Notes under the pieces: model-generated
The model's database searches: none
The model's input: only the letters and a program-made list of their open reading frames with translations
What the model was told of the DNA's origin: nothing
Program-made: the position numbers and the translations under genes
Part shown: positions 1 through 7,983 of the stretch, piece by piece
How the letters are laid out: each line of letters begins with the position of its first letter
Numbering within the stretch: position 1 is the first letter of the stretch
Assembly: GCA_027623355.1 (NCBI GenBank)
Contig: JAQBWB010000013.1
Location: 1 to 23,418 of the forward strand
Length of the DNA: 23,418 nucleotides
Source of the DNA: Nanobdellota archaeon
GTDB lineage: Archaea; Nanobdellota; Nanobdellia; Woesearchaeales; JACPBV01
Direction of reading: 5' to 3'

Positions 1-80
1 GTTTTTAGATTAAGAAGCAAGGCTGAGCCTGCGCTAACCGAGGCATTGCCGGGAGGATTTCTATGGGGCCGTTCACATGT

Positions 81-247
81 ATGTGCATAGCATCCTAAGG
101 TCGAAATTCTTTGACCTTCCAAAGCAGGTGCGTTGCGAGGGGTCGACCCCCTCCCGGGACGCAGCACATTCAAGGAATAATCTCAGGAATTTCGAAGATG
201 GTTGCTTTAGCAGCCTACGAACGCTAGTGACTATGCTATGCACATAC
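81..247. repeat. 167-bp structured repeat element, copy A (MITE-like element or small structured RNA)
   Basis: Matches 11236-11402 at 164/167 positions (mismatches at 113, 155, 168). Perfect 13-bp terminal inverted repeats: ATGTGCATAGCAT at 81-93 and ATGCTATGCACAT at 233-245. Internal hairpins: 97-102/113-118, 138-142/148-152 and 200-205/210-215. A 9-nt long-range complement links 101-109 with 187-195. Visibly GC-richer than its flanks. Confidence 0.8.
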
Positions 248-284
248 GTTTACATCTTTCATAAGTATATCTGGCCCACAAAAG

Positions 285-292
285 TTTATAAA
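285..292 (+). promoter_or_regulatory. TATA box (TTTATAAA) for leaderless methyltransferase mRNA
   Basis: TTTATAAA is centred 26.5 nt upstream of the ATG at 315. The same spacing recurs at other transcription-unit starts in this window. Confidence 0.55.
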
Positions 293-314
293 GCAAGATT
301 AACTCTAAAAACAC

Positions 315-1046
315 ATGGAAATGCGCCCTTTATTTGAGAAGAAATACCATCTGCTTGAAGCAAAGCACTGGTGGTTCAAAGCAAGACGAGATATGATTCT
401 AAAACTACTAAGATCTACTAAAAAAGAAGCAAAACTAATAGACATCGGCTGTGCTGGAGGAACAACCCTCAAATTTCTTACCAAAAAAGGATTTTCGAAT
501 ACCTCAGGAATCGATCTCAGTGCAAATGCAATTAAACACTGCAAAAGCAAAGGGATGAAGCAAGTTTCCTGCCAGGATGCAACAAAAACCAACTTCAAAG
601 ACAACACTTTCGATACCCTCATTTCCTCGGATGTCGTTCAAAACATTCCTGATGACTTGCAAGCACTAAAAGAATGGCATCGTATAGCAAACAAAGACTC
701 AACTTTAATCCTCTTTACCGATGCCTACCAATGGCTCTGGAGCAAACACGATGAATCAGCAAAGGCACTACGCAGATATTCCCTATCTCAACTAGAAAAG
801 AAAGTAAAACAAGCGGGTTGGAAAATAGAAAAAAGCTCCTATTGGAATATGATGCTACTTCCCCCTATTGCAATAGTAAGGTTCCTAAAAAACCTAGTCA
901 ACAACAAAGAAGGAGACGACCTAGATCTGCCACCGAGAATACTTAACCGTCTAATCACCGCCTGGATGAAAACAGAAAACTCACTTCTAACACATATCAA
1001 TGCTCCCTTTGGAGTAAATGTAATGATTGTAGCAAGAAAAAACTAA
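315..1046 (+). CDS. class I SAM-dependent methyltransferase
   Basis: 243-aa ORF. SAM-binding motif I is LIDIGCAGGTTLKFL. An acidic residue closes strand 2 (GIDLS). Typical Methyltransf_11/23-like length. Confidence 0.85.
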   Translation: MEMRPLFEKKYHLLEAKHWWFKARRDMILKLLRSTKKEAKLIDIGCAGGTTLKFLTKKGFSNTSGIDLSANAIKHCKSKGMKQVSCQDATKTNFKDNTFDTLISSDVVQNIPDDLQALKEWHRIANKDSTLILFTDAYQWLWSKHDESAKALRRYSLSQLEKKVKQAGWKIEKSSYWNMMLLPPIAIVRFLKNLVNNKEGDDLDLPPRILNRLITAWMKTENSLLTHINAPFGVNVMIVARKN

Positions 1047-2971
1047 CACGAAAGATCTATTTCCAAAACCTTCTCATCAACCAAGGACTTCAATAAACAC
1101 AAACCGCTAGAGTAATCGGCCCCTTGTTCTAACAACACCCATGTGCCCTCTACAGCAATAACTCCATACTCTTCTGAAGTAACCAAATTATGATATTCCT
1201 CATTTGAAACAAGAAGCGCACTTCGTTTAGGATCATTACGTGCCTCGCTCAGCTCAAGAACAATGTATTCTGGAGCTGCTACAACTTCCGGTTTGTGAAT
1301 CATATCTTTAATTCTATACACATATTCCCGATTAGAAAGATGAGGCAGCACCCAATTCGCAGCAGCAACCGTCGCATCATCAGGAACCAGATCTATAATC
1401 ATATTACCATTTGCAACATAATCACTACCCGGGTTAAAATCACCAACATCATACAACAGTGCAAAGGGACCATAGAATGAAAAGGACAATACACTGGTGG
1501 CAAGTGCAAAAATAGCCAAAGCAGGAACAATATTTTTTACCACAACAAAATTCAGCTTCAGTTTCTTTACCCATCGTGGCAAATACTTAGCTAAAAATAC
1601 AATCCCAAATAAAGCACTCAAAATAACAAAAACAAAAGCATTACTTTGGTGGTGATATACGATATCGGGAAGTGTTCTCTGCTGATACACCAAAAGAATC
1701 CCAAATTCAGTAGCTCCCAGTAATAACACCGGCAATCCAAAGAGGGAAAGTAACCCCATCCCATATTCAGAGAAGAATAATCCTAAGAATGCAATCTTAT
1801 CAAAGGACAACAGATAGCGTATCGTATCTATCGGCTGCGTCACCATCGAAATAAGCGTTTCAGATAAGCTACCACCAAAGTCAGGGTTATAATATCTAAA
1901 TGCCTGTTCATAAAAGTGAGGAATGATAATCTCAATGTTCAGATACACCCAAGCAATACCTACTATCGCAAGAATACTACCCATCACTCTTTTTCGGTCC
2001 TTTAAAAAAATATAGATACCAAACGGAACCAGCACTAACGGCAAATTTTCCTTACAAATACCAGCAAAGACAAGAAACAAAATCATCAATCCATATCGTT
2101 TCTCAAATAAATAATAAACAGCGTACATCAAGAAAGGAACCGCTAACACTAACGGATGAAAATCAAATAGTGCAGGGTACCAGAACGCAGGAGCAAAAAA
2201 GTAAGCCAAAAACAAAAGAAATACAGCAACATCATGTTTTAAATATTTTCGAGCAAGTAAGAAGAGAGGAATCGAACCAACAGCAATGGCAAGAGACTGA
2301 ATCACCACAAGAGTAAGTGGACTGGAAAAAAGAACATAGAACGGAAGCAATAAGAAGAGAATCGGTTGAACATGATCTCCAAAAATAGTATAACCGAGAA
2401 CAGAAGAATAGTCAGCACCGTTACTCAAACCGAATATCACCTGGTTATACAATCCTAAATCAAAACCTGTGGAATAAAACGAAAGATGCTTGAACACTGC
2501 AAGTAATGTAACAACCACAAAAAAGAAGCAAGATACTCCATACACCCACCGAATAGGAATCGTTCTACTTTTAATCTCGATATCTAACAACAACATGCTA
2601 AGCAAAATCCACACGCTAAGAGCAAATAACAACAACAATAGCGATGGCAATGAAGAATATTGAGAAAACTGAGCTGGAATAACAACGAGAGACGTTATCG
2701 GAAATAATGCGAGAACAAAAAAAGAAAGAAAAGGAATACTTTGTTTCTTTCTAACTAACCCAAGTTTAACTTTTGTCTTTTTAACAATAAAGGAACACAA
2801 GCCCTGCCAAACACCTAAGAATAATCCGATAAACAGAACAATAACCAATATACTGAGCCCCATATTATTCTGAGCATTTGAGATGCCTACAGCAAAGTTC
2901 AAACTAAAAAGGCCGGTAATCAAACCTGCCAAAACAACAACAAGTCCAGGGAGCAAAGATAATCGCTTCAT
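1043..2971 (-). CDS. polytopic membrane protein, DUF2079/GT-C-like putative glycosyltransferase
   Basis: 642-aa ORF with more than 12 predicted TM helices and a soluble C-terminal domain of about 150 aa. The stretch FGDHVQPILFLLLPFY resembles the DUF2079 signature. ATGA overlap with the upstream GT4 gene. Confidence 0.6.
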   Translation of the reverse strand: MKRLSLLPGLVVVLAGLITGLFSLNFAVGISNAQNNMGLSILVIVLFIGLFLGVWQGLCSFIVKKTKVKLGLVRKKQSIPFLSFFVLALFPITSLVVIPAQFSQYSSLPSLLLLLFALSVWILLSMLLLDIEIKSRTIPIRWVYGVSCFFFVVVTLLAVFKHLSFYSTGFDLGLYNQVIFGLSNGADYSSVLGYTIFGDHVQPILFLLLPFYVLFSSPLTLVVIQSLAIAVGSIPLFLLARKYLKHDVAVFLLFLAYFFAPAFWYPALFDFHPLVLAVPFLMYAVYYLFEKRYGLMILFLVFAGICKENLPLVLVPFGIYIFLKDRKRVMGSILAIVGIAWVYLNIEIIIPHFYEQAFRYYNPDFGGSLSETLISMVTQPIDTIRYLLSFDKIAFLGLFFSEYGMGLLSLFGLPVLLLGATEFGILLVYQQRTLPDIVYHHQSNAFVFVILSALFGIVFLAKYLPRWVKKLKLNFVVVKNIVPALAIFALATSVLSFSFYGPFALLYDVGDFNPGSDYVANGNMIIDLVPDDATVAAANWVLPHLSNREYVYRIKDMIHKPEVVAAPEYIVLELSEARNDPKRSALLVSNEEYHNLVTSEEYGVIAVEGTWVLLEQGADYSSGLCLLKSLVDEKVLEIDLSC

Positions 2972-4017
2972 ACCTTAAGAAAGGAAACTCTGTTTTTAAG
3001 ACTTACTTTTTTTCTAAGAAGTTCAATAACAGCATCCGCAAATCCAGAAATATCATTAACCGCAACAAGCTTACCTTTCTTCAACACCTCAGGGTGACTT
3101 CCTACAGAGAAAGCAACCGTAGGCTTACCACACGCAAATGCCTCAACAATAGGAATATCAAATCCTTCCCATAAACTACAAGTCGTGTACACGTCACACG
3201 CAGCATAATATTCAGGGAGTTCAGCATCCGCAACAAAACCAGCAAACGTAACGCCCGAGACATTCATAGATTTCAACTTTTTTGAATAACCAGAAAACGT
3301 ATGTTTTCCAACAATAACCAATTGAGCATTAGAAAACTCTTTCTTAATCAACGTAAAAGCTTTCAACAACAAGTCAACGCCCTTATGCGGACTAATTCTG
3401 CCAACATACAGCAAAACGGGTCCACTACCTAAGCCATGTTTCTTCACAATTCGTGAACCAGGCACCGTAGAATTAAACCGTTTACTTTCAACAGAAATAT
3501 ATTCAACCGTACTAGTAACTCCAGTCTCCTTTTTCAAAACATCCGCGAGAAACTTGGAAATCGAAACAGCCGAATCACATGACTTCACAAAATGATTGTT
3601 AAAAGCATTAAATAATGTTAAGTACTGTCTCTCAAAGTAAGAATAACTAGAAACAATACCCACTCCAGCATTATAGTACACATACTCAATCTTCGGATTC
3701 TTTTTCTTTGCACTAGCACCCAATATAGTCATCGGATATAAATGAGAAACAACACGATCATATCCAGCCAACTCCGAACCGACTCTAGAAACCTTGAAAA
3801 CATCCAAGAACATCAAGAGCCGATATATTCTCTGTAAAAAACCGCCGTTAGGCATACCTAACACATGCACTCTAATACCGGTTGGCTTCAAACTCCCTGC
3901 TAACGTAAAAACATGAACCTCATGACCTGTCTTCGAAAGTTCTTTTGCCTGACCCTCAACCAATCTGTCAATTCCAGAGAACTCGTGAAATGTTGGAGTT
4001 AACAGTGCAATTTTCAT
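2968..4017 (-). CDS. GT4-family (GT-B fold) glycosyltransferase
   Basis: 349-aa ORF. GRISPHKGVDLLLKAF is followed by EGFDIPIVEAFACGKP, an EX7E-type motif typical of Glycos_transf_1. ATGA overlaps at both ends. Confidence 0.9.
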   Translation of the reverse strand: MKIALLTPTFHEFSGIDRLVEGQAKELSKTGHEVHVFTLAGSLKPTGIRVHVLGMPNGGFLQRIYRLLMFLDVFKVSRVGSELAGYDRVVSHLYPMTILGASAKKKNPKIEYVYYNAGVGIVSSYSYFERQYLTLFNAFNNHFVKSCDSAVSISKFLADVLKKETGVTSTVEYISVESKRFNSTVPGSRIVKKHGLGSGPVLLYVGRISPHKGVDLLLKAFTLIKKEFSNAQLVIVGKHTFSGYSKKLKSMNVSGVTFAGFVADAELPEYYAACDVYTTCSLWEGFDIPIVEAFACGKPTVAFSVGSHPEVLKKGKLVAVNDISGFADAVIELLRKKVSLKNRVSFLKV

Positions 4018-4783: not shown

Positions 4784-5683
4784 ATGAAAGCACTTATTAC
4801 AGGGGCGGGCGGTTTTGTCGGCGGATATCTAAAAAAGCACCTCGAAGAAAAAAACATTGAGGTAGCAGGTCTAGATAAACATCCAAATGTTAACACAACT
4901 CATACAGTAGACCTCCTAGACAAAGAAAAACTCTCCGCAACAATAAAAGAGGTCTCCCCAGATTTAATCTTTCACCTAGCAGCACAATCCTCAGTAAAGA
5001 AATCATGGCAAGAACCCGAATTAACAAAAGAAATCAACGTACAAGGCACAAAAAACCTTTTAGATGCCGTAAAAGAAAATAATCTCAATCCTAAAATTCT
5101 TCTAATAAGTTCCGCAGACGTCTATGGCATACCTGCTACCCAGCCCATGAATGAAAGTTTACCCCTAGCACCCGTAAGTCCCTACGGGAAGTCAAGAATC
5201 GAACAAGAAAAGCTAGCACTCTCCTACGATCTTGACATCATTATTTCAAGAAGTTTCACCCATACCGGTCCCGGCCAAAAGGCTATCTTCGTCTGTAGCG
5301 ATTTCGTAAAACAGGTAGCAGAAATAGAAAAAGGAACCAGAACAGAACTAGTAACTGGAGACTTAACCATCACAAGAGATATCATCGATGTGCGTGATAT
5401 GGTAACCGCCTACCTCATAGCCATCCAAAAAGCAAAACCCAAGCAAATCTACAATCTCTGCGGCAATAAAGGATACAAACTCCAAGAAATAGTAGATATC
5501 CTAAGGACCCTAACCACAACCGAAATCACAGTAAAGCAAGATCCCGAAAAGATCCGCACAAAAGACATCCCAGAAATGATTGGCGACAATACCAAGTTCA
5601 CCCAAACCACAAATTGGAAACCAAAAATCCCAATGCAACAAACCCTCAAAGACATGCTAGACTTCTGGCGAAAAGAGTTGTAG
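4784..5683 (+). CDS. NAD(P)-dependent SDR epimerase/reductase (GDP-6-deoxy-4-keto-mannose reductase Rmd-like)
   Basis: Rossmann motif MKALITGAGGFVGGYL. Catalytic YxxxK (SPYGKSR). FTHTGPGQ...GDLTITRDIIDVRDMV resembles Rmd/GMD-like SDRs. Start moved from 4742 to the ATG at 4784, directly before the Rossmann motif and correctly spaced from the TATA box. Confidence 0.8.
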   Translation: MKALITGAGGFVGGYLKKHLEEKNIEVAGLDKHPNVNTTHTVDLLDKEKLSATIKEVSPDLIFHLAAQSSVKKSWQEPELTKEINVQGTKNLLDAVKENNLNPKILLISSADVYGIPATQPMNESLPLAPVSPYGKSRIEQEKLALSYDLDIIISRSFTHTGPGQKAIFVCSDFVKQVAEIEKGTRTELVTGDLTITRDIIDVRDMVTAYLIAIQKAKPKQIYNLCGNKGYKLQEIVDILRTLTTTEITVKQDPEKIRTKDIPEMIGDNTKFTQTTNWKPKIPMQQTLKDMLDFWRKEL

Positions 5684-7852: not shown

Positions 7853-7930
7853 TATCCCATAGGGATACCAGGAATGTTTCATTCCTAAGTATTACGAACG
7901 GCAAACAAATCTTCGATTATTATTTGCCGT
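7853..7930. promoter_or_regulatory. three consecutive inverted repeats/hairpins in the divergent intergenic region
   Basis: TATCCC-ATA-GGGATA at 7853-7867. AGGAATG-TTT-CATTCCT at 7870-7886. ACGGCAAA-(17 nt)-TTTGCCGT at 7898-7930. Confidence 0.35.
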
Positions 7931-7975
7931 GAGTATAGCACCGTGCCTCAGCATCATCGACACTTATCCAACACA

Positions 7976-7983
7976 TTTATAAA
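7976..7983 (+). promoter_or_regulatory. TATA box (TTTATAAA) for the epimerase-GT2-MT-rfbF operon
   Basis: Centre lies 26.5 nt upstream of the ATG at 8006. Confidence 0.55.

What the first reader, a model, noticed from the sequence alone, without database searches (positions are those of the whole stretch)
81..247. 167-bp GC-rich element with perfect 13-bp terminal inverted repeats and multiple internal helices, present twice
**Seen in sequence:**
- 81-247 and 11236-11402 are 164/167 nt identical and in the same orientation.
- The ends ATGTGCATAGCAT and ATGCTATGCACAT are perfect inverted repeats, which could act as DNA TIRs or as a closing RNA helix.
- Inside are hairpins AAGGTC/GACCTT, AGGGG/CCCCT (within the palindrome GGGGTCGACCCC) and GGTTGC/GCAGCC.
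- A bulged helix pairs GTGC..TGCG with CGCAGCAC.
- A 9-nt long-range complement links TCGAAATTC (101-109) with GAATTTCGA (187-195).
- The element is noticeably GC-richer than the AT-rich surroundings, as structured RNAs are in low-GC genomes.
- No transposase lies nearby and no obvious target-site duplication is present.

**Inference:** this is either a MITE or a repeated structured non-coding RNA. I could not match it to the SRP RNA, RNase P, C/D-box or hammerhead signatures I know.
Basis: seen in the sequence. Interest (0 to 1): 0.7.

Follow-up and report, generated by a model that had tools for sequence, protein, structure and literature searches.

The report
Small non-coding transposon (MITE) of Woesearchaeota
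The repeated 167-bp GC-rich element is a miniature, gene-less DNA transposon (a MITE) that is common in groundwater DPANN archaea, so it is an ordinary kind of mobile DNA rather than a new RNA gene, though its folded shape is unusually well kept.

Summary
Window 81-247 and 11236-11402 are 164/167 identical, in the same orientation, 50% GC against 39% for the window.

**What it is:** a MITE whose true ends are 79-247 and 11234-11402.
- It has 15-bp terminal inverted repeats, GTATGTGCATAGCAT...ATGCTATGCACATAC.
- It makes 8-bp target-site duplications.
- I recovered 57 distinct copies from Woesearchaeota/Nanoarchaeota MAGs and metagenomes, 129-459 bp long. Thirty-four distinct sites carry a TSD with at most one mismatch.
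- An orthologous empty site exists (L109/L110, against the filled site in L001).
- Copies are intergenic, show no orientation bias, and have no Rfam match.

**Structure:** Both strands fold equally well, so this does not show an RNA function.

**Parent element:** a 1.72-kb element with the same ends turned out to be a MITE carrying a nested IS4-subgroup insertion sequence. That IS has its own inverted repeats and a 10-bp TSD, and it targets the MITE's apical hairpin. It is a guest, not the parent. The MITE's own transposase was not found.

**Side finding:** the window's flank right of copy 2 is non-ancestral, from recombination or a chimeric assembly at the repeat.

It is a new member of a known kind, of modest interest.

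The parts
79..247 (+). MITE copy 1 (169 bp including the GT/AC terminal dinucleotides)
   Evidence: Direct repeat with 11234-11402. Matches family covariance model R1 at 71.1 bits, E about 4e-13, on the + strand.
79..93 (+). Left terminal inverted repeat GTATGTGCATAGCAT
   Evidence: Columns 3-16 are invariant and 1-2 nearly so across 29 distinct family members. Pairs with 233-247.
233..247 (+). Right terminal inverted repeat ATGCTATGCACATAC
71..78 (.). Left copy of the 8-bp target-site duplication, GTTCACAT
   Evidence: Matches 248-255 at 7 of 8 positions. Chance of at most 1 mismatch is about 0.003 per site.
248..255 (.). Right copy of the target-site duplication, GTTTACAT
101..109 (+). Subterminal helix P1b, 5' arm TCGAAATTC; pairs with 187-195 GAATTTCGA
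   Evidence: Family helix 2 (alignment columns 23-31/110-118): 100% paired, and 4 of 9 pairs show changes on both sides.
187..195 (+). Subterminal helix P1b, 3' arm
128..137 (+). Core helix P2, 5' side: GTGC (128-131), bulge GTT, GCG (135-137)
   Evidence: Family helices 4 and 5: 97-99% paired, and 6 of 7 pairs show compensatory changes.
160..167 (+). Core helix P2, 3' side: CGC (160-162), A, GCAC (164-167)
138..159 (+). Apex AGGGGTCGACCCCCTCCCGGGA, a variant of the family apex AGGGGWTGC-TCCC-TAC-GGGA
   Evidence: Alignment to model R1. In other copies this apex is the insertion site of the IS4-type guest IS.
201..235 (+). 35-nt insertion specific to this subfamily. It splits the right subterminal region after GAAGATG. 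Its position is ambiguous by the 3-nt ATG repeat.
   Evidence: Present only in the two window copies and in L001. Absent from the 29 basic copies.
11234..11402 (+). MITE copy 2 (169 bp). The left repeat has GA instead of GT.
   Evidence: Matches R1 at 77.6 bits, E about 2e-14.
11226..11233 (.). Left target-site copy AATAAACA of copy 2, 6 nt after the stop codon of the NTP-transferase gene (10523-11227)
   Evidence: In L001 the same insertion has AATAAACA on both sides. The empty site in L109/L110 has one copy, GTAAACA.
11403..11410 (.). Right flank ATCAATAC, which does not match the left target-site copy. This is the point where the window departs from L001 and from the ancestral gene order.
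   Evidence: L001 is 99.94% identical to window 7866-11403 and then diverges. The gene order in L109 agrees with L001.

Best explanation
[quoted passage not shown] It is a non-coding, non-autonomous cut/copy-and-paste DNA transposon of Woesearchaeota-type DPANN archaea.

**How it moves (inferred from the duplications and inverted repeats):** a DDE-type transposase encoded elsewhere recognises the 15-bp terminal inverted repeats GTATGTGCATAGCAT, probably together with the conserved 30-nt subterminal regions. It makes an 8-bp staggered cut in A+T-rich intergenic DNA, and the repair leaves 8-bp target-site duplications.

**Its anatomy:** the basic form is about 130-135 bp and folds back on itself.
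- The stem consists of the terminal repeats, a subterminal helix, a core helix and a small apical hairpin.
- A conserved unpaired AGGGGWTGC sits next to the apical hairpin.
- Larger forms carry extra DNA in the apex or, as in this window, a 35-nt insertion near the right end.

**Side effects seen here:**
- The apex is a specific landing site for an unrelated IS4-subgroup insertion sequence.
- Dispersed copies act as recombination or assembly-break points. The window itself changes locus exactly at the end of copy 2.

**Shown versus inferred:**
- Shown: the ends, the duplications, the copy number, the empty site, the covariation and the nested IS.
- Inferred: the identity and family of the mobilising transposase, which was not found, and the reason the fold is kept.
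For: **Family size and spread**
- Same-end elements of 166-179 bp occur in 5 Woesearchaeota/Nanoarchaeota MAGs, with 5 copies in one MAG.
- A further 69 metagenome loci match the left end.
- Sizes are mostly 129-135 bp, with others at 169-191, 213-243, 310 and 416/459 bp.

**Target-site duplications**
- 41 of 62 full copies have an 8-bp TSD with at most 1 mismatch. These represent 34 distinct sites among 57 distinct copies.
- Chance is about 0.003 per site, and the duplications are 78% A+T.

**Filled versus empty site**
- L001 reads TGGTAATAAACA[MITE]AATAAACAGAAAAGT.
- The syntenic L109/L110, whose NTP-transferase is 88% identical, reads GGGAGTAAACAGAAAAGT with no element.

**Coding and context**
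- There is no conserved ORF. The ORFs across the two window copies differ.
- 46 of 54 distinct copies are intergenic.
- Contigs break inside the element (L002, and many loci), as expected for a multi-copy repeat.
- Copies occur adjacent to one another (L054, L066, L035).

**Membership of the window copies**
- Covariance model R1 finds exactly the two copies in the window, at 77.6 and 71.1 bits.
- No transposase is encoded in the window.

**Background:** high MITE density has been reported for a Woesearchaea genome (PMC11602168).
Against: - No autonomous element with these ends and its own transposase was found. None turned up among the 69 metagenome loci, the 9 genome loci or the viral contigs.
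- 21 of 62 copies lack a recognisable TSD, including window copy 2. I attribute this to recombination or assembly joins between copies, but that is an inference.
- The internal helices covary more strongly than a purely selfish, decaying MITE would need. Something keeps the fold, and I cannot say what.
Confidence: 0.9

Rival explanations
1. The MITE also carries a selected nucleic-acid structure. In this reading the core module (P2 helix, unpaired AGGGGWUGC, 4-bp hairpin with a UNC loop) works as an RNA when co-transcribed, or as single-stranded or cruciform DNA. Possible roles include a binding site for a host or transposon protein, or a stabiliser or terminator. This adds to the MITE explanation rather than replacing it.
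For: - On a structure-blind MAFFT alignment of 29 distinct copies, 96.9% of cells are paired.
- 13 pairs show changes on both sides (75 cells), and 0 of 500 shuffles reach that score. Slid registers give only 31-48% paired.
- P2 takes at least six different sequences (GAGC, GCCC, GCTC, GGGC, AGGC, GCGC) while staying paired.
- The hairpin covaries UCCC/GGGA to CUCC/GGAG.
- The loop stays T-N-C (TAC, TGC, TTC, GTC).
- G.U-type mismatches outnumber A.C-type 12 to 4 on the + strand.
- The same apex motif occurs in hairpin elements with other ends (L005, L058) and inside an ISH3-like IS (L082).
Against: - Both strands fold equally well, with z about -6 to -8 on each.
- There is no orientation bias relative to neighbouring genes: 24 against 15 upstream and 20 against 15 downstream.
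- There is no Rfam match.
- The G.U excess is small and the counts are not independent.
- Paired changes in a palindrome can also arise without selection, by template switching within quasi-palindromes, or from the need for both ends to fit one transposase.
- On the opposite strand the loop reads G-N-A, which I recall as a very stable DNA triloop. The loop rule therefore fits a DNA hairpin as well as an RNA one.
Confidence: 0.2
2. The MITE is a deletion derivative of the 1.72-kb element seen in L081, which has the same ends and the 8-bp TSD CCCAATTG, and it is mobilised by the IS4-family transposase that element encodes.
For: - L081 2665-4388 has GTATGTGCATAGCAC...GTGCTATGCACATAC, a perfect 8-bp TSD, and a 429-aa transposase. 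That transposase matches IS4-family model NF033592 at 162 bits against a cutoff of 115.
- L040 and L061 show a MITE left end followed by the same gene.
- The outer and inner ends share ATGT(G)CAT and TAAGG-like words, by my reading of the sequences.
Against: - The transposase sits in a 1583-bp unit with its own perfect inverted repeats, CAATGTCATTAAGTTA/TAACTTAATGACATTG. These fit the IS4-subgroup end signature -AATR--------WTW.
- That unit is flanked by a 10-bp direct repeat (GGGAGCAACC), and the IS4 subgroup makes 10-13 bp duplications (PMC2266710 Table 1).
- Removing the unit and one repeat copy restores a 132-bp MITE that aligns end to end with the family.
- The identical protein P0024 also sits in a different host hairpin next to an ISH3-like IS (L082/84/86, TSD GGTTGCTCCC).
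- Relatives sit in other hairpins (L112 with TSD GCTTGCTACG, and L114).
- The MITE's own duplication is 8 bp, not 10-13.
Confidence: 0.07
3. The element is a stand-alone repeated non-coding RNA gene, and the terminal repeats serve only as a closing helix.
For: - The element is GC-rich in an AT-rich genome.
- Its folds are stable.
- Its helices covary.
Against: - It has a fixed 8-bp flanking duplication at 34 unrelated sites and a filled/empty site pair.
- Its orientation is random.
- Its length varies from 129 to 459 bp, with insertions in the apex.
- No promoter element is conserved inside it.
- There is no Rfam family match.
Confidence: 0.03

Closest known systems
Prokaryotic MITEs in general, including archaeal ones
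   Same: Small size, no coding capacity, terminal inverted repeats, a fixed-length target-site duplication, intergenic location, many copies and fold-back structure. High MITE density has already been reported for a Woesearchaea genome (PMC11602168; review PMC10969869). I also recall the Sulfolobus SM1-SM4 MITEs as archaeal examples.
   Different: I did not find this particular family (ends GTATGTGCATAGCAT, 8-bp TSD) described anywhere. No parent IS was identified, so it cannot be assigned to an IS family.
Enterobacterial ERIC/IRU and neisserial Correia (NEMIS) elements
   Same: These are imperfect palindromes of about 100-160 bp that fold into long hairpins on either strand. Size variants arise from insertions at fixed internal sites, and pairing is kept (Delihas review PMC2229807; details from my own knowledge).
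   Different: They come from different hosts and have different ends. Correia elements make a TA duplication, whereas this family makes 8 bp. No RNA processing or promoter activity has been shown here.
REP/BIME palindromes as specific targets of insertion sequences (IS1397, ISPpu9/10 and others)
   Same: An IS inserts specifically into the apex of a repeated palindromic element (PMC1525189). Here an IS4-subgroup IS always sits in the apical hairpin, with a 10-bp TSD.
   Different: The host repeat here is a transposon with inverted repeats and a TSD, not a REP. The guest is IS4-family, not IS3 or IS110. REPs themselves have no terminal repeats or TSD.
Porphyromonas gingivalis MITE that contains a minisatellite
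   Same: A tandem repeat sits inside a MITE and varies in copy number (PMC4596501). Here a 43-nt unit occurs 3.6 times in L049/L075 and one unit fewer in L052.
   Different: The sequence and host are unrelated, and only a few copies of this family carry the repeat.

Membership tests
MITE (non-autonomous transposon with terminal inverted repeats) | Terminal inverted repeats | tested here: met
   15-bp repeats in which columns 3-16 are invariant and 1-2 nearly so across 29 distinct copies.
MITE (non-autonomous transposon with terminal inverted repeats) | Target-site duplication of fixed length flanking independent insertions | tested here: met
   An 8-bp TSD with at most 1 mismatch at 41 of 62 copies, representing 34 distinct sites. 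Chance is about 0.003 per site. Window copy 1 matches 7/8. Window copy 2 lacks it, but L001 has it perfectly.
MITE (non-autonomous transposon with terminal inverted repeats) | Small size and no coding capacity | tested here: met
   Copies are 129-459 bp. Only short ORFs are present, and they differ between copies.
MITE (non-autonomous transposon with terminal inverted repeats) | Multiple dispersed copies at unrelated loci | tested here: met
   57 distinct copies in MAGs and metagenomes. At least 3 are implied in the window's own genome.
MITE (non-autonomous transposon with terminal inverted repeats) | Insertion polymorphism (filled versus empty orthologous site) | tested here: met
   L001 is filled and L109/L110 are empty, with a single copy of the target.
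MITE (non-autonomous transposon with terminal inverted repeats) | A cognate autonomous IS with the same ends | tested here: inconclusive
   None found in 78 loci or in the viral contigs. The only long element with these ends (L081) owes its transposase to a nested guest IS.
IS4 family, IS4 subgroup (as parent of the MITE) | End signature -AATR--------WTW | tested here: not met
   The MITE end GTATGTGCATAGCATC fits only 5 of the 7 specified positions. The nested IS end CAATGTCATTAAGTTA fits all of them (PMC2266710 Table 1).
IS4 family, IS4 subgroup (as parent of the MITE) | Target-site duplication of 10-13 bp | tested here: not met
   The MITE TSD is 8 bp. The nested IS has 10 bp.
Curated structured RNA family (Rfam 15) | Match to a family covariance model at gathering score | tested here: not met
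   No hit in the whole window. Only chance-level hits at E >= 0.15 in the relaxed searches. No tRNA or tmRNA was found.
Structured non-coding RNA gene (generic) | Helices supported by compensatory changes | tested here: met
   13 pairs with changes on both sides, 96.9% paired, and 0 of 500 shuffles reaching the score.
Structured non-coding RNA gene (generic) | Strand specificity (one strand folds better, or orientation is tied to transcription) | tested here: not met
   Both strands fold equally well. There is no orientation bias. Only a weak 12:4 excess of G.U over A.C mismatches.
Structured non-coding RNA gene (generic) | A discrete transcript | not testable with these tools
   No transcriptome data are available.
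REP/BIME or IS200/IS605-type palindromic elements (PATEs) | Subterminal hairpins without terminal inverted repeats and without target-site duplication | tested here: not met
   This family has both terminal repeats and an 8-bp TSD.

The most novel reading that the evidence does not exclude
The roughly 35-nt core is a closing helix, an unpaired AGGGGWUGC and a 4-bp hairpin with a U-N-C (G-N-A on the other strand) loop. In this reading it is an independent functional nucleic-acid module that several unrelated mobile elements of Woesearchaeota carry:
- this MITE family;
- at least two hairpin elements with other ends;
- an ISH3-like IS.

A clade of IS4-type elements has evolved to recognise it. 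It would then be a shared handle for a host or transposon protein, acting as RNA or as single-stranded DNA, rather than a by-product of palindromic ends.
Probability: 0.15. Interest if true: 0.55.

Novelty: new member of a known kind. Interest (0 to 1): 0.3.

Why it matters
- It settles what the two GC-rich repeats in this window are, and removes them from the list of candidate new RNA genes.
- It gives a defined MITE family for annotating groundwater DPANN genomes: its ends, its 8-bp duplication, a size series and a covariance model.
- It flags the element as a place where assemblies of these genomes break or join wrongly. The window itself changes locus at 11402/11403.
- It documents an archaeal case of an insertion sequence that homes to the apical hairpin of another mobile element.
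- The strongly covarying fold, and the same apex turning up in other elements, is the one open point that could repay a transcriptome check.

Tried and rejected
**Searches that found nothing useful**
- Rfam at gathering score on the whole window, and relaxed searches on 1-400 and on a basic copy in L015, gave nothing credible.
- ARAGORN found no tRNA or tmRNA.
- Viral-contig scans with the core, the left end and the 15-mer repeat gave 0, 0 and 21 single chance hits without a partner end.
- A search of all held loci (374 kb) for isolated terminal-repeat matches found only contig-end fragments of MITEs. No long element was found other than L081/L085.
- Look-ups of the window proteins flanking copy 1 and the right side of copy 2 found them not on record. 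The window's own assembly and an empty site for copy 1 could therefore not be retrieved.
- I suspected L004 held an IS4-like gene because its contig length equals that of P0050's contig. It does not.

**Interpretations rejected**
- The 1.72-kb element as parent, for the reasons given under the rivals.
- A C(UNCG)G tetraloop reading of the apical hairpin. Covariation supports a 4-bp stem with a 3-nt loop instead.

**Method notes**
- RNAalifold's own consensus on the family alignment missed the core helices. I therefore specified the structure by hand and counted pairs.
- My quick count of 13-mer inverted repeats against mononucleotide shuffles was uninformative, because overlapping palindromes inflate it. 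I do not use it.

Full report
**1. The observation**

The window holds one long direct repeat, 81-247 and 11236-11402, 167 nt at 98% identity in the same orientation.
- The copies differ at 113, 155 and 168, and at 80 just outside the reported range.
- The 13-bp ends are perfect inverted repeats.
- The copies are 50% GC in a 39% GC window.
- The + strand folds at -64.1 kcal/mol (z = -5.4) and the - strand at -60.1 kcal/mol (z = -3.3).
- Rfam finds nothing at gathering score and only chance-level hits in the relaxed search. There are no tRNAs.

**2. Surroundings**

The gene content points to a DPANN archaeon of the Woesearchaeota type: SRP54, a NurA-domain protein, and a long run of methyltransferases, glycosyltransferases, epimerases and an NTP-transferase between the two copies. 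Close homologues of the NTP-transferase are labelled Woesearchaeota or Nanoarchaeota. No transposase is encoded in the window.
- Copy 1 lies upstream of a methyltransferase gene (315-1046).
- Copy 2 starts 6 nt after the stop codon of the NTP-transferase gene (10523-11227).
- Both copies are followed within about 10-35 nt by AAAGTTTATAAA (281-292 and 11413-11424). I read this as an archaeal BRE/TATA-like promoter element; that is my own interpretation.

**3. More copies**

A genome scan for the two 13-mers 125-155 nt apart returned 9 loci in 5 Woesearchaeota/Nanoarchaeota MAGs, with five copies in one MAG.

A metagenome scan with the left end returned 69 loci. Pairing left and right ends gave 62 full copies.
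- Most are 129-135 bp.
- Others are 169-191, 213-243, 310 and 416/459 bp.
- Many contigs stop inside the element, as does the Logan contig L002. That is what a multi-copy repeat does to short-read assemblies.

A covariance model built from 29 distinct basic copies finds only the two known copies in the window, at 77.6 and 71.1 bits on the + strand. In the fetched loci it finds further adjacent or tandem copies (L054, L066, L035).

**4. It is a transposon**

Nearly every copy is bounded by GT...AC, so the terminal repeat is 15 bp. Immediately outside lies an 8-bp direct repeat.
- 41 of 62 copies have it with at most one mismatch. These represent 34 distinct sites among 57 distinct copies.
- Chance per site is about 0.003, and the duplicated sites are 78% A+T.
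- Window copy 1 has GTTCACAT/GTTTACAT.

Copy 2 needs a separate account. Contig L001 is 99.94% identical to window 7866-11403 and carries the same insertion with a perfect AATAAACA on both sides. It then continues differently from the window.

A relative whose NTP-transferase is 88% identical (L109/L110) has the same gene order as L001 and no element at this spot.
- Empty site: GGGAGTAAACAGAAAAGTTTATATAC.
- Filled site: TGGTAATAAACA[MITE]AATAAACAGAAAAGTGTATATAC.

That is a filled/empty pair with a duplicated target. It also shows that the window's flank to the right of copy 2 is not the ancestral one. Either two copies recombined or the assembler jumped between copies. I cannot tell which.

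Window copy 2 has the consensus G in its right terminal repeat where L001 has C. This fits a hybrid of two copies.

**5. Anatomy and the helices**

The structure-blind alignment of 29 distinct basic copies shows the following features.
- Terminal repeats that are essentially invariant.
- Conserved subterminal regions, CATAAGGTCAAAATTC on the left and GAATTTTGAAG on the right.
- Two variable A+T-rich spacers.
- A conserved core, GAGC-GTT-GCG-AGGGGWTGC-TCCC-TAC-GGGA-A-CGC-A-GCTC.

RNAalifold's own consensus missed the core. I therefore wrote the structure by hand and counted pairs.
- 96.9% of cells are paired.
- 13 pairs show changes on both sides (75 cells).
- 0 of 500 shuffles reach this score, and slid registers give 31-48% paired.

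The subterminal helix, both parts of the core helix and the 4-bp apical hairpin all covary. The terminal repeat does not vary.

AAGGTC/GACCTT is broken in copy 2. GGTTGC/GCAGCC lies in a 35-nt insertion (201-235) seen only in the window and L001.

**6. Does the fold mean RNA?**

Not shown.
- Both strands fold equally well.
- 46 of 54 distinct copies are intergenic, and orientation relative to neighbouring genes is unbiased.
- G.U-type mismatches exceed A.C-type 12 to 4 on the + strand. That is weak and the counts are not independent.
- The apical loop keeps T-N-C on one strand and therefore G-N-A on the other. I recall G-N-A closed by C-G as a very stable DNA triloop, so the loop rule fits DNA hairpins as well as RNA.
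- Paired changes in a palindrome can also come from template switching, or from the need for both ends to fit one transposase.

I keep a selected structure as an add-on possibility at about 0.2.

**7. The search for a parent**

Two metagenome contigs (L040, L061) show a MITE left end followed by a 429-aa gene.
- Pfam DDE_Tnp_1 matches at E = 5e-19.
- NCBIfam IS4-family model NF033592 matches at 162 bits against a cutoff of 115.

This protein has 892 homologues at E <= 1e-20. In L081 it lies inside a 1724-bp element with the MITE ends and a perfect 8-bp TSD, CCCAATTG.

The gene, however, belongs to an inner 1583-bp unit.
- The unit has its own perfect inverted repeats, CAATGTCATTAAGTTA/TAACTTAATGACATTG, and is flanked by a 10-bp direct repeat, GGGAGCAACC.
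- Cutting out the unit and one repeat copy restores a 132-bp MITE that aligns end to end with the family.
- The published signature of the IS4 subgroup is ends -AATR--------WTW, size 1400-1650 bp and duplications of 10-13 bp (PMC2266710 Table 1). The inner unit fits all three. The MITE ends and their 8-bp duplication do not.

The same IS turns up in other hosts.
- The identical protein sits in a different hairpin beside an ISH3-like IS (L082/84/86, TSD GGTTGCTCCC).
- Relatives sit in other small hairpins (L112 with TSD GCTTGCTACG, and L114).

So this IS is a guest that homes to hairpin apices, and the MITE's AGGGGTTGCTCCC apex is one of its targets. That parallels bacterial insertion sequences that target REP palindromes (PMC1525189).

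The MITE's own transposase was not found in the fetched loci or in viral contigs.

**8. Comparison with known things, and verdict**

The element meets every structural criterion of a MITE except a known parent (see the membership table).
- MITEs are well known in bacteria and archaea, and a Woesearchaea genome has been reported among the most MITE-dense archaeal genomes (PMC11602168).
- I found no description of this particular family.
- The size series with apex insertions recalls ERIC elements.
- The 43-nt tandem repeat in some copies recalls a P. gingivalis MITE with a minisatellite.

Verdict: a new member of a known kind, with confidence 0.9 that it is a MITE and interest 0.3.

The least ordinary feature is the strongly covarying core, whose apex motif also appears in other mobile elements.

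Noticed in passing
window 11402/11403 (compare L001 3537/3538 and L109 6700-6730): The window departs from contig L001 exactly at the end of MITE copy 2, after 3538 bp of 99.94% identity. L001 and the related L109/L110 share the downstream gene order (small ORFs, then epimerase, then GT2). The window instead continues with an 880-aa protein and an RHS-repeat protein. This is either recombination between MITE copies or a chimeric assembly.
   Followed up: partly
window 1-78: A GC-rich (51%) stretch lies left of copy 1 and is cut by the window start. It has no Rfam match. It shares only a 12-nt word (GATTAAGAAGCA) with the right half of another hairpin element in L005. It may be the end of a different repeat element.
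   Followed up: partly
L081 2734-4316; also L082 1233-2815, L112, L114, L040, L061, L087: A 1583-bp IS4-subgroup insertion sequence with these features:
- a 429-aa transposase;
- a conserved antisense ORF of about 49-60 aa upstream of it;
- inverted repeats CAATGTCATTAAGTTA.

It is always found in the apex of a small hairpin with a 10-bp duplication. Several copies have mismatched flanks (L083, L085, L087, L040), which suggests recombination or assembly joins between IS copies.
   Followed up: yes
L082 about 1-3000 and L083 26-...: An ISH3-like IS with these features:
- a 354-aa transposase, matching NF033541 at 117 bits, below the 225-bit cutoff;
- ends CAGTAGATTCGA, which fit the ISH3 CRGT signature;
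- between its transposase stop and its right end, a long hairpin with the same apex motif, GGGGTTGCTCCCTACGGGA.

The IS4-type guest has inserted into that apex.
   Followed up: partly
L005 about 5400-5560 (- strand); L058 about 1300-1400 (+ strand): Two other fold-back elements with different outer arms (GTTGCCATC... and GGGTTTGTCCCAAGA...) but the same apex motif, GGGGWWGYCCCTWCGGGG. This hints at a wider group of hairpin elements in these genomes.
   Followed up: no
L049 1071-1223; L075; L052: A 43-nt tandem repeat sits inside the MITE apex. There are 3.6 units in the 459-bp copies and one unit fewer in the 416-bp copy at the same insertion site (TSD GTAGGAAT), so it varies in copy number like a minisatellite.
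   Followed up: partly
L054 1467-1598 and 1604-1735; L066 205-332 and 334-466; L035 40-172 and 1309-1443: MITE copies lie next to each other, head to head 5 nt apart in L054 and in tandem 1 nt apart in L066. This suggests insertion close to existing copies or local duplication.
   Followed up: no
window 281-292 and 11413-11424: The same AAAGTTTATAAA, which looks like an archaeal BRE/TATA element, lies just downstream of both copies. At the L001/L109 site the MITE also sits directly upstream of AAAGT(G/T)TATATAC. Insertions may favour A+T-rich promoter-proximal DNA.
   Followed up: no
window 11506-15581: An 880-aa protein with no Pfam match is followed by a 478-aa protein with RHS repeats. This could be a surface or toxin-like pair, and it lies in the segment joined to the glycosylation cluster at copy 2.
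   Followed up: no
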